The notes under the pieces were generated by a model. That model had not been told where the DNA came from, ran no database searches, and saw nothing but the letters and a program-made list of their open reading frames with translations. Below, one piece after another: positions 7,729 through 23,235 of a stretch of 39,388 bases of DNA (the stretch's first letter is position 1; the number at the start of each line of letters is the position of its first letter). The DNA lies in IMG/VR virus record IMGVR_UViG_3300020045_006357, positions 1 to 39,388 of that record; one strand, given 5' to 3'. The stretch is from a virus. Lineage: Duplodnaviria; Caudoviricetes. Both the position numbers and the translations under genes were made by a program.

Positions 7729-8177
7729 TGATCACTGACAAAACACTAGATGCGTGGAAAAGCTGGCTGGAAACATCGATTGCCGCGGATGAGGATTCAA
7801 TCCTTGCTGACATTCCGATTCAGATGCGCGATTCCGAAGAGGTGAAGACCTATCCGGGCATCTACATCGAAGAAGGCGGAAAGCCCCAGAGGATCACCCC
7901 TGGCGGCGTTATGGATGGTAATTCTTGGCTTGTGGAGATCATCACAAAGCTCGTCACCACCCCCGGCGATGACGATCAGGCAGCGACATCGAAACTGGAG
8001 CACGACGCGATGAGAGACGCGCTGTCGCCGCATATCAGCAGCGCTGACGCCAAGGCGCATATTGACGCCGCCGATGATATTGCGTGTCACCAGCTCGATT
8101 ATTCGCAACCGGAAACCACAGAGGCTGACGGCTATCGGGTCACCTCGTGGTCATGCGAGGCGGTGGTTTGCGGATGA
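7728..8177 (+). CDS. Putative tail terminator protein
   Basis: 149 aa acidic, YPGIYI motif, directly before tail tube gene. Confidence 0.55.
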   Translation: MITDKTLDAWKSWLETSIAADEDSILADIPIQMRDSEEVKTYPGIYIEEGGKPQRITPGGVMDGNSWLVEIITKLVTTPGDDDQAATSKLEHDAMRDALSPHISSADAKAHIDAADDIACHQLDYSQPETTEADGYRVTSWSCEAVVCG

Positions 8178-21241: not shown

Positions 21242-22291
21242 TCACCGGAAAAACCGCTCTCCCGCCGCCTTAGTCACCGCCCGCCGATAGTGCCGGAACA
21301 GCGTAGAGCTGCCCGCAGCATGCCCCATCGCTTGCTTTGCAGCGTCCTCCCCGAACGCCGCCAGATAGTTGCTGCCGAACGTGTGCCGGCAAACATCGAC
21401 CATTTCAGCAATCCCAGAATCCCGCCGGATCCGCTGCCATTTTTTCCGCCAGCCGCTCGGGCAAACCGGGCCGGATTTCGGATGGTCGCCGATCAGTCGT
21501 CGCAACCTGGACGTGATCGGGATGTGCCTGTCACTTTTTGTTTTGGAGACGTGCCGAGGAACGTAAATCTCCGACTCGCCAACCGCGGACCAGTCGAGCC
21601 GGCCAATCTCGCCAGACTCCGAATCGGGACGAATCCCGGCAAAAATCAGCAGCGCGATAACCCGCTTCTCGTCAGCGCACTCGCAGACGCGCAAAACCCG
21701 CCCGGCTTGAGATGGCGACAGGATGTCGATATGCGACGATTTCCGGTGTCGCTCCCGGTAGCCGATTATTGCCGAGAGATAGCGCGCGCGGTTGTCGATG
21801 GTGCTGCGTTTGATTTTGGATTGCTCGGTCAAGGCGCGCTCCATTTCGGCGCGGTCAACCGACGCGCAGGGGAGCGCCATAAACCACGCAGGAACCCACC
21901 GCGGCAGTCTCCCCATGTCGTCGGCGTATCGAGGTGCCCACTCCTGCTCCATGGCCAGCATGGCGCGATCGTAGCGCTCCCGAAACGTCTCGCGATCCGA
22001 CTCGCTGGGCAGTCTCGCCATCGCCATCCGCGCAGCCTCCGCAACTGTTATCCCGCTGCCCGCAAGGATCCGCTCGGCTTCTTTTGCCTGGATCGCGAGG
22101 GTCGCCGATATCATCGACCCGCGAACGCCTGACGAGTGCGAGGCGCGAATGGATGCAGCGAATTTGAGCGCCTTGCTGCGATCTGGGAAATACCTCCGAA
22201 CTCGCTCGCCGGCGGGACTCATGGACGCAGGGACTGAGACCATCCATCCGCGGGAAGTTTCGACGGGGAGGAATTTAGGAGGCGCTGCCAC
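21242..22291 (-). CDS. int: Tyrosine recombinase/phage integrase
   Basis: AGIR (R), SKT (K), DVCRHTF (HxxR with H to D), MGH, HYR (Y); close to attP. Confidence 0.92.
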   Translation of the reverse strand: MAAPPKFLPVETSRGWMVSVPASMSPAGERVRRYFPDRSKALKFAASIRASHSSGVRGSMISATLAIQAKEAERILAGSGITVAEAARMAMARLPSESDRETFRERYDRAMLAMEQEWAPRYADDMGRLPRWVPAWFMALPCASVDRAEMERALTEQSKIKRSTIDNRARYLSAIIGYRERHRKSSHIDILSPSQAGRVLRVCECADEKRVIALLIFAGIRPDSESGEIGRLDWSAVGESEIYVPRHVSKTKSDRHIPITSRLRRLIGDHPKSGPVCPSGWRKKWQRIRRDSGIAEMVDVCRHTFGSNYLAAFGEDAAKQAMGHAAGSSTLFRHYRRAVTKAAGERFFR

Positions 22292-22324
22292 GGGCGGGGA
22301 TAAGGGATGCGGAAGACTTCCTGA

Positions 22325-22618
22325 TCAGCTGTTCTCGGAAGATTTGATTTCCTCCACGATGATCCGGTATTTCGGCACGCCATTCACTTTCACGTCGAGC
22401 GCGTAGCCGGGTTGCACGAGCTTCACCACAGAGTTCAGCGCGTCGCTCGTCACGTCCTGCTTGCCTTCCCTCCAGGTTTTCCCGTCCTTGCAGAGGCGTC
22501 CCACGAATATCCTCTCGGACAGCGCGGCGAGGCCGACAACCAACCGAGAACAAGTAGTCGTTGGCAACCCGCCATCTGGGGCGAGTTCGGGCGTTGAGTC
22601 TGATGGGGCAGTTTTCAT
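22325..22618 (-). CDS. Cassette 1 ORF, hypothetical (RIFVGR...KQDVTSD)
   Basis: ATG 22618 inside attC1 loop, overlapping TGA of upstream ORF (ATGA); part of ORF 22325..22759. Confidence 0.65.
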   Translation of the reverse strand: MKTAPSDSTPELAPDGGLPTTTCSRLVVGLAALSERIFVGRLCKDGKTWREGKQDVTSDALNSVVKLVQPGYALDVKVNGVPKYRIIVEEIKSSENS

Positions 22619-22660
22619 GGTGTCGGAGATTTGGTGTCGGCGGTTGCCAAGACAGGAGCG
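22332..22660 (+). mobile_element. Integron-type gene cassette 1 (329 bp)
   Basis: Begins at G^TTCTCGG (22331-22338), the exact reverse complement of CCGAGAAC (22544-22551, R'' of its attC). Confidence 0.8.
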
Positions 22661-22666
22661 TTCGTC
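22545..22666 (+). repeat. attC site 1 (122 bp)
   Basis: R'' CGAGAAC, 5-nt spacer, L'' GTC[G]TTGG, CAACC[C]GCC...GGC GGTTG, L' CCAAGAC, 6-nt spacer, R' GTTCGTC. Confidence 0.82.
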
Positions 22667-22950
22667 CGGCGGAATGCCCGTGGGTGCAGTATCTGTTCGC
22701 GGGGATGACGGTCGGCGTGATCTAGCCCCCAATACATCCGTGCATGAAGGCGGGTCCACGACTGCCCCTCGTCAATCCGGGTGATGGTGCATGATCTCCA
22801 TTGGCCTTCTCCACGGTAGCCATCCCACAGGTATTCCAGCGTTTCGCCCACGGTCGGCTTGATCGTTTTGTCAGCCTTGGCCGCAAGTTCCTGCCACGGA
22901 CGAACAAGGGAGCGCATACGACCCGGAGAAGCTTTTCTGTTACTTTTCAT
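22615..22950 (-). CDS. Cassette 2 ORF, hypothetical
   Basis: ATG 22950 inside attC2 loop; reads through the right arm of attC1 and stops in the attC1 loop; part of ORF 22615..23109. Confidence 0.6.
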   Translation of the reverse strand: MKSNRKASPGRMRSLVRPWQELAAKADKTIKPTVGETLEYLWDGYRGEGQWRSCTITRIDEGQSWTRLHARMYWGLDHADRHPREQILHPRAFRRTNAPVLATADTKSPTP

Positions 22951-22988
22951 TGGCTTGATCTTTCGCTCCGGGCGCATGGCCCCCAGCG
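22661..22988 (+). mobile_element. Integron-type gene cassette 2 (328 bp)
   Basis: Begins at G^TTCGTCCG (22660-22668), the exact reverse complement of CGGACGAAC (22897-22905). Confidence 0.78.
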
Positions 22989-22994
22989 CTCGGT
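22899..22994 (+). repeat. attC site 2 (96 bp; R' reads GCT)
   Basis: R'' GACGAAC, spacer AAGGG, L'' AGC[G]CATA, CG[A]CCCGGAG...CTCCGGGCG, L' CATGGCC, spacer CCCAGC, G^CTCGGT; L-box mismatches become G.T on the bottom strand. Confidence 0.72.
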
Positions 22995-23040: not shown

Positions 23041-23235
23041 GTCGCCACTATCGCCACATCGCAGAACGATGAGGAAGGAAACATGAGCAATCATGCATTG
23101 GAAAATCAACAGATTGGGGAGCCGGCTGAGGGATTTGAACCCTCGACCTACTGATTACAAATCAGAGGGCAAATTCATACGGCGCTAGGCGAATCGGCGA
23201 CGGGTTGAGAAATCGCCTCCAAATCGCCACATCGC
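23041..23235. other. attP region: tRNA-Thr(TGT) 3'-half core with arm repeats and IHF site
   Basis: Core 23118-23165; ATCGCCACATCGC at 23050-23062 and 23223-23235; AATCAACAGATTG (23104-23116) matches WATCAANNNNTTR. Confidence 0.85.
23118..23165 (-). other. att core = 3' half of tRNA-Thr(TGT)
   Basis: CTGA-TTTGTAA-TCAG TAGGTC GAGGG-TTCAAAT-CCCTC AGCCGGCTCC; D-arm and 5' acceptor strand absent. Confidence 0.88.

What the first reader, a model, noticed from the sequence alone, without database searches (positions are those of the whole stretch)
22331..22994. Two tandem integron gene cassettes (attC array without IntI) inside a phage, between attP and int
Seen: two sites with full attC anatomy (R''-5 nt-L'' with one extra base, a second extrahelical base, variable loop, L'-6 nt-R'). 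The cassette signature also holds twice. GTTCTCGG at 22331 is the exact reverse complement of attC1 R'' (8 bp). GTTCGTCCG at 22660 is the exact reverse complement of attC2 R'' (9 bp). Each unit (329 and 328 bp) would therefore regenerate a fully paired attC when excised as a circle. The attC2 L-box mismatches become G.T pairs on the bottom strand, the strand IntI recombines (established). No IntI is encoded in the window. Inference: the phage uses the host integron integrase to acquire and shuffle accessory genes, making it a phage-borne cassette system.
Basis: partly seen in the sequence, partly recalled or inferred. Interest (0 to 1): 0.9.

Follow-up and report, generated by a model that had tools for sequence, protein, structure and literature searches.

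The report
Back-to-front integron cassettes in a phage
This phage carries two small genes packaged as integron-type DNA cassettes that recur in other genetic elements with different neighbours, but the genes face backwards so that each recombination hairpin supplies a gene's start and its neighbour's end, which likely lets phages swap genes without breaking their reading frames.

Summary
Both attC sites are real. A model built only from Akkermansiaceae-family chromosomal attC sites scores them 40.5 and 23.6 bits; the next hit is 8.5. Both cassettes have moved. Cassette 2 recurs whole (89.6%) in a 76-kb phage array with other neighbours. Cassette 1's body recurs at 99% in public contigs (one study), joined to another attC exactly at G|TT 22331. 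In 21 of 21 relatives checked, attP abuts int without cassettes.

Both genes run antisense to attC polarity, start inside their own attC loop and cross the junction AAC in frame as Asn (65 of 72 cassettes in related viral arrays); host cassettes run the normal way (43 of 46). The DUF7446 cargo is a phage family, absent from 201 host-family genomes searched. attC2 ends in G|CT, not G|TT.

The phage's own integrase is not IntI. IntI-type enzymes occur in 67 of 151 host-family genomes and, as divergent forms, in four viral records. Recombination was not tested. Phage attC clusters are published (Qi 2023); I found no paper on the inverted design. This scan noted it before in at least 18 other genomes. 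Verdict: new variant of a known kind.

The parts
21242..22291 (-). Phage tyrosine integrase, 349 aa, GTG start; attP/tRNA-type, not IntI
   Evidence: PF00589 and phrog_1; no NCBIfam integron-integrase match; 361 homologues; relatives mostly in Verrucomicrobiota MAGs
22292..22333 (.). 40-bp spacer ending in the left crossover G|TT (22331); possible attI-like site (bottom strand AAC-5 nt-ATC, against AAC-5 nt-RTT at other array ends); weak
   Evidence: Sequence; the public contig match begins exactly at 22331
22332..22660 (+). Cassette 1, 329 bp
   Evidence: R'/R'' 8-bp complement; body 22331-22555 found at 99% in contigs of one public study, flanked by other attC arms
22325..22618 (-). Cassette 1 gene, 97 aa, DUF7446 family; ATG inside the attC1 loop; first ~24 residues encoded by attC1; ends Asn-Ser-stop across the left crossover
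   Evidence: PF24233 E 6.7e-10; homologues with other leaders and tails
22544..22668 (+). attC1 (top strand +, folded bottom strand -); its loop holds the overlapping stop of gene 2 and start of gene 1 (ATGA, 22615-22618)
   Evidence: 40.5 bits with host-only model; fold
22661..22988 (+). Cassette 2, 328 bp
   Evidence: 9-bp complement; whole unit at 89.6% in locus L216, homology 22657-22991, different neighbours
22615..22950 (-). Cassette 2 gene, 111 aa, no family; ATG inside the attC2 loop; last 15 residues after Asn encoded by attC1 L' arm; core predicted to be a small Tudor/SH3-like barrel (weak)
   Evidence: model pLDDT 77.7; best fold hits are Tudor domains at E about 0.1 only
22897..22994 (+). 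attC2, with degenerate R' G|CT at 22988
   Evidence: 23.6 bits; intact AAC copy in L216
22989..23040 (.). 52-bp distal flank of unknown origin
   Evidence: No significant match in the loci held
23041..23058 (-). Arm-type repeat that lies a few bases before the int start in relatives; a further copy at 23223-23231
23119..23166 (-). attP core: 3' part of a tRNA-Thr gene (anticodon TGT read from the sequence)
   Evidence: Sequence; many tRNA-bearing contigs match 23119/23131-23166; same core upstream of int in relatives

Best explanation
This is a two-cassette array of integron-type units whose genes run opposite to normal cassettes, so each attC hairpin encodes its own gene's start and the upstream gene's last codons, and the units were likely moved by an IntI-type recombinase supplied from outside this genome. 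Shown: attC anatomy; recurrence of both units elsewhere with breakpoints at the crossover; gene inversion; start codons in the loops; an in-frame Asn at the crossover; an empty attP-int junction in distant relatives; no IntI here. Inferred steps: (1) IntI cuts the folded bottom strand at AA|C, as in known integrons, and inserts the circle at an attI-like end; cassette 1, next to that end, would be the newest. (2) Because AAC is read in frame, any cassette would take its tail and stop from whichever attC follows, so order changes would keep a translationally coupled operon. (3) Less often the exchange happens at R'', which swaps the hairpin and leader between gene bodies; top-strand recombination or 8-bp microhomology could do this. 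(4) The enzyme comes from the host (about 50%), from another phage or prophage with an IntI-like gene (about 35%), or elsewhere. (5) Here the array looks partly worn (G|CT, ATC), and in a lysogen it would lie just downstream of the host tRNA-Thr gene, co-oriented with int.
For: Host-only attC model hits both sites. Cassette 2 recurs whole at 89.6% between the two crossovers in L216, in a 7-site array with other neighbours. Cassette 1 body recurs with 2 differences in 225 bp, starting exactly at 22331 behind another attC arm and ending in the R'' spacer before another arm (three runs, at most two samples, one study). Same leader on an unrelated body (P0125), same body with other leader and tail (P0122); gene 2 homologues diverge after Asn. 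Orientation: host 43 of 46 top strand, viral 5 of 5 bottom. Frame 0 at the crossover in 65 of 72 viral cassettes, ATG inside own attC in 45 of 72. IntI over cut-off in 67 of 151 host-family genomes. IntI-like proteins in viral records G156, G160, G163, G166 (193-260 bits), three directly behind an inverted array. Phage attC sites recombine with IntI1 in PMC9892861.
Against: No recombination, circle or transcript was observed; read laying showed no joint. No close relative with an empty or differently loaded site was found. Removing both cassettes leaves about 85 bp more than in relatives. attC2 has G|CT; a mismatched second position cut attC x attI1 recombination from 2.2e-3 to 6e-6 in PMC2811028, though a G.T wobble as here was not in the passages I read. 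The left end matches the array-end motif at only 2 of 3 positions. The viral IntI-like proteins score under the family cut-off of 265. In 27 of 72 cassettes no ATG lies in the attC, and 7 of 72 break the frame rule.
Confidence: 0.72

Rival explanations
1. Passenger relic: the cassettes were assembled by IntI elsewhere, but came here as one block by homologous or illegitimate recombination and are no longer recombined at this site.
For: About 85 extra bp beyond the cassettes; G|CT in attC2 and a degenerate left end; the phage encodes a YqaJ-type recombination exonuclease; no joints in runs.
Against: Cassette 1 body is 99% identical to a copy with other flanks, with the break exactly at 22331; both R'/R'' signatures are still exact; both ORFs are intact and coupled.
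Confidence: 0.17
2. One reading: an ordinary CALIN in which the phage picks up host accessory cassettes with the host IntI.
For: Same attC type as host integrons; IntI common in the host family; precedent in PMC9892861.
Against: Genes inverted against 43 of 46 host cassettes; DUF7446 in 0 of 201 host-family genomes and mostly viral; the published TJE1 array is in normal orientation, unlike this one.
Confidence: 0.06
3. The phage's own attP integrase doubles as the cassette recombinase, since int sits where intI sits in related phage arrays, 40 bp behind the array end.
For: Layout parallels G156, G160 and G163, where intI follows the array end by about 45-50 bp.
Against: No match to integron-integrase models; at most 22% identity to any IntI in the set, on a very long branch; none of 36 loci with this integrase family has attC in the attP-int gap.
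Confidence: 0.03
4. Chance hairpins or RNA elements such as terminators, unrelated to recombination.
For: None specific; attC1 folds slightly better on the top strand (-14.4 vs -11.8).
Against: 0 of 30 random sequences match; model E 3.7e-8; exact breakpoints in other elements; no Rfam family; no terminator call there.
Confidence: 0.02

Closest known systems
Phage CALINs (Qi et al. 2023, PMC9892861; read: main text parts 1-4 of 7 through the conclusion, supplement part 1 of 2)
   Same: Two or more attC sites in a phage genome without intI; phage attC sites were recombined by IntI1 there.
   Different: In TJE1, the one published case I checked, genes run in normal cassette orientation. Here genes are inverted, start in the loop and are frame-locked at the crossover. 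The text I read does not describe inversion.
Sedentary chromosomal integrons of Akkermansiaceae (Verrucomicrobiota)
   Same: Same attC sequence type; a model built from them finds both window sites.
   Different: They have intI next to attI and genes on the top strand (43 of 46); DUF7446 not found in 201 genomes searched.
SALINs and attG secondary-site insertions (bioRxiv 10.1101/2022.09.11.507474; read: passages and section 33)
   Same: Short cassette clusters far from intI, proposed to arise by IntI insertion into genome sites.
   Different: attG consensus is GWT; the putative target here would be G|CT, and the left end resembles phage array ends instead.
Synthetic protein-coding attC sites (Nivina et al. 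2020, PMC7439510; read: passages)
   Same: attC hairpins that also encode peptide and still recombine.
   Different: Those are designed; here natural attC arms encode leaders and tails, with stop/start overlap in the loop.

Membership tests
attC site | R''-5 nt-L''...L'-6 nt-R' imperfect hairpin with extrahelical bases on the R''-L'' arm | tested here: met
   both sites
attC site | Conserved AAC (R'') and GTT (R') | tested here: inconclusive
   Met for attC1; attC2 has AAC but G|CT
attC site | Folded bottom strand recombined by IntI | not testable with these tools
   Needs a recombination assay
Integron gene cassette | Unit moves with breakpoints at G|TT and carries a matching R'/R'' pair | tested here: met
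Integron gene cassette | ORF on the top strand, upstream of its attC (typical, not mandatory) | tested here: not met
   Both ORFs on the bottom strand, starting in the attC loop
CALIN | At least two attC sites within a few kb and no intI nearby (threshold used in PMC9892861) | tested here: met
CALIN | Called by IntegronFinder or HattCI | not testable with these tools
   Programs not available; own model used instead
Complete integron | intI gene with the IntI-specific insertion next to the array | tested here: not met
   Adjacent integrase has no TIGR02249 or PRK15417 match
Complete integron | attI site at the array head | tested here: inconclusive
   AAC-5 nt-ATC versus AAC-5 nt-RTT at 13 other array ends
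Complete integron | Pc promoter driving cassettes from attI | tested here: not met
   No sigma-70-like site near the array; genes point toward the attI-like end, so such a promoter could not express them
attG secondary-site insertion | GWT target | tested here: not met
   Right flank starts G|CT; mutation after insertion cannot be excluded

The most novel reading that the evidence does not exclude
Phages of Verrucomicrobiota run their own mirror-image integron system: a phage-only cassette pool, phage-encoded IntI enzymes and attI sites, and attC hairpins that act as exchangeable translation modules. Recombination at both ends of the R box would shuffle gene order and also swap protein leaders and tails, and insertion between attP and int would let cassettes tune integrase expression and be expressed in lysogens.
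Probability: 0.35. Interest if true: 0.85.

Novelty: new variant of a known kind. Interest (0 to 1): 0.66.

Why it matters
Integron cassettes are treated as a bacterial device that phages occasionally carry. Here the cassettes look built for phage operons: 10 of 24 related phage records carry such sites, the cargo is viral, and the recombination site is protein-coding. If IntI moves them, site-specific recombination is a route to phage genome mosaicism, and natural attC sites do what was so far shown only with designed ones. This window gives two concrete cassettes with mapped breakpoints that can go straight into the standard attC x attI assay.

Tried and rejected
Close relatives: the integrase as single query found none in viral contigs; an exact 23-base left-flank pattern found 0 metagenome contigs; the region has no match among 50,697 GenBank phages. 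So no empty or reloaded version of this exact site was seen. Sequencing runs: three small-share holders only, no RNA holder listed, no joints; this is no evidence on expression or excision. Pattern scans gave false loci: of 7, L066, L068, L070 and L071 were not attC arrays (L068 and L071 judged from the hairpin scan alone), and of 3 only L114 was. The search for an empty attI of another array type returned one already known record. Gene 2 metagenome hits L211-L215 and viral L217-L218 were weak and had no attC. Rfam gave only chance-level hits. The IntI tree was a quick, unfinished run with long-branch warnings and lacked L147, L155 and L236; I use it only to say the window's integrase is unrelated. 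A 15-of-16 match of the joined flanks to integrase coding sequence of relatives (E 7.6) was rejected as chance. Fold search for gene 2 gave no hit under E 0.001; Atlas hits for it were under 0.9. My hairpin scanner missed real sites that the covariance model found, so model counts are used.

Full report
Context. The window is a whole virus record, 39,388 bp, estimated complete. It encodes terminase, portal, capsid, tape measure, a CHAP protein, YqaJ exonuclease and DnaB, so it is a tailed temperate phage. The best relatives of its integrase in genome contigs are mostly Verrucomicrobiota MAGs, including Luteolibacter and Akkermansiaceae; the host is inferred from this alone.

Observation. Both hairpins exist where stated, with the stated spacers, extra bases and exact R'/R'' signatures. 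They are the only strong hits of my scanner in the window, against 0 in 30 random sequences. For an independent test I collected 48 attC sites lying next to intI genes in Akkermansiaceae-family genomes. Their stem covaries strongly (91.8% of cells paired; 30-47% when slid; the sites were chosen by a pairing scan, so this is partly by construction). The model scores the window's sites 40.5 and 23.6 bits, both on the minus strand, with the next hit at 8.5. One correction: attC2 ends G|CT. On the folded bottom strand this is a G.T wobble in the R box. The same site in another phage has AAC, as do 81 of 83 sites in related viral arrays, so it is a mutation here; a single transition or a 2-base deletion both fit.

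Insertion relative to kin. An alignment of the integrase family fetched 36 viral loci at 42-62% identity. None has an attC between attP and int. In 21 of 21 loci with a full N-terminus that I measured (17 viral, 4 from genome contigs), the tRNA T-loop lies 101-131 bp before the int start; in the window it is 850 bp, and 193 bp with both cassettes removed. So the array is lineage-specific, but it came with about 85 extra bases and is not a clean G|TT indel against these distant relatives. No close relative was found.

Mobility. Cassette 2: locus L216, from a 76-kb phage, matches window 22657-22991 at 89.6%, from one crossover to the other, inside a seven-site array with different neighbours on both sides. 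Cassette 1: contigs from three public runs (at most two samples, one study) match 22331-22555 with two differences. The match starts on the G of G|TT, and the letters before it read as the L' arm and spacer of a different attC. At the other end it stops in the R'' spacer and continues into a different L'' arm (my reading of 30-letter loose ends). The first break is the standard crossover. The second shows that a gene body can also change its own hairpin near R''. Proteins agree: P0125 has the window's attC1 leader on an unrelated body, and P0122 has the body with another leader and tail. Recombination of the top strand occurs at R'' in PMC5027507 (passages read), so top x top exchange could do this; 8-bp microhomology is the alternative. 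Neither is shown.

Inverted design. Gene 1 (22325-22618, DUF7446) and gene 2 (22615-22950) are on the minus strand. Each ATG lies in its own attC loop, the frame runs through L'' and R'', crosses the next AAC as Asn, and ends in the next site; stop and start overlap as ATGA in the attC1 loop. Host cassettes run on the top strand in 43 of 46 cases, viral ones on the bottom in 5 of 5 (longest-ORF rule). In 19 viral or prophage loci with 83 model-called sites, 72 had a downstream partner; the longest open frame met the AAC in frame in 65 of 72 (one third expected), and an ATG lay in the own attC in 45 of 72. Four weak or duplicate model hits were left out, and related arrays are not independent. 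Gene 2 homologues share the body up to Asn and then differ. Several distant DUF7446 proteins are 71-74 residues with no leader or tail (16 of 89 hits viewed), so these parts are add-ons from the hairpins. The cargo is viral: DUF7446 clusters are 48-75% viral and the family was not found in 201 host-family genomes. Neither gene has a known function; gene 2 may be a small Tudor/SH3-like barrel (weak).

Which enzyme. The adjacent integrase has no integron-integrase match and is far from IntI. IntI passes the family cut-off in 67 of 151 host-family genomes. Such sites occur elsewhere in 10 of 24 phage records with this integrase family (24 of the 36 loci were given). IntI-like genes occur in 2 of 28 records and 2 of 5, at 193-260 bits against a cut-off of 265; their best NCBIfam match, for the two tested, is the integron integrase. 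In G156, G160 and G163 the gene follows the array end directly and in the same direction as the cassette genes. Of 23 non-attC partners, 13 read AAC-5 nt-RTT a short way before a phage gene, like an attI; 8 look like missed attC sites or chance partners and 2 differ. The window's left end reads AAC-5 nt-ATC, 40 bp before int, a weak match. Cassette 1, next to this end, has the closer outside copy (99% against 89.6%), which fits newest-first loading but depends on sampling.

Mechanism. See Best explanation. In a lysogen the array and int would follow the restored host tRNA-Thr gene in the same direction, so readthrough could express them; this is inference, and no promoter was found near the array. 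PMC2811028 (abstract and passages) reports tolerance at the second base when paired and a 400-fold drop for a mismatch, so cassette 2 may be partly locked.

Comparison with what is known. Qi et al. 2023 (PMC9892861; main text parts 1-4 of 7 and supplement part 1 of 2 read; figures and the Dryad annotation file not seen) found 17 CALINs in 10,705 phage genomes and showed IntI1 recombination for five of six sites. In TJE1 the sites are in normal orientation to the genes; I did not check their other phages, and the unseen file may hold inverted cases. Also consulted as passages: PMC2727003, PMC4889954, PMC7439510 and bioRxiv 10.1101/2022.09.11.507474 (its supplements closed). Nine full-text searches showed no paper on inverted, frame-locked phage cassettes; two listings were not opened, and subscription journals are largely missing. 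This scan's own notes describe the design in at least 18 other genomes; I had reached the inversion reading before looking, and I tested the points I took from them.

Verdict. A real, mobile pair of attC cassettes that meets the definition of a two-site CALIN but not of an integron. The phage-borne part is known; the inverted, protein-coding design is a new variant. Interest 0.66.

Noticed in passing
L157:1-4068 (G240): A 4,068-bp viral record with direct terminal repeats made only of eight inverted cassettes; either an excised multi-cassette circle or an assembly loop through a repeated cassette.
   Followed up: partly
L178:1438-2496; L179:753-1718; L235; L236: Phage-encoded IntI-like recombinases, three directly behind inverted arrays, on long branches apart from host IntI in a quick tree.
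   Followed up: partly
L230:2175-2265 and 7778-7868 (G156): One phage has two copies of the same attI-like end, one behind a nine-site array and one behind a single cassette.
   Followed up: no
L001:2955-3240: A DUF7446 gene in another phage keeps the inverted GTTCTCGG/CCGAGAAC brackets but its hairpin is not recognised by the model: a likely domesticated cassette next to a tRNA-like sequence.
   Followed up: partly
window:23026-23040: Right after the arm repeat, where relatives have ATG GCN as the int start, the window reads ATT GCT; possibly a relic of the original start, with int now starting at GTG 22291.
   Followed up: no
L114:3906-4856: An 813-bp inverted cassette encodes what looks like a DNA methyltransferase by its sequence motifs; not scanned against families.
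   Followed up: no
window:19811-19885: Phage tRNA-Gly(TCC) gene after the lysis region.
   Followed up: no
L129, L130, L139, L141, L144: Several host-family IntI open frames are 680-770 residues, far longer than usual IntI; fusion or long N-terminal extension not examined.
   Followed up: no
window:23175-24062: 295-aa minus-strand ORF on the far side of attP with no convincing family match.
   Followed up: no
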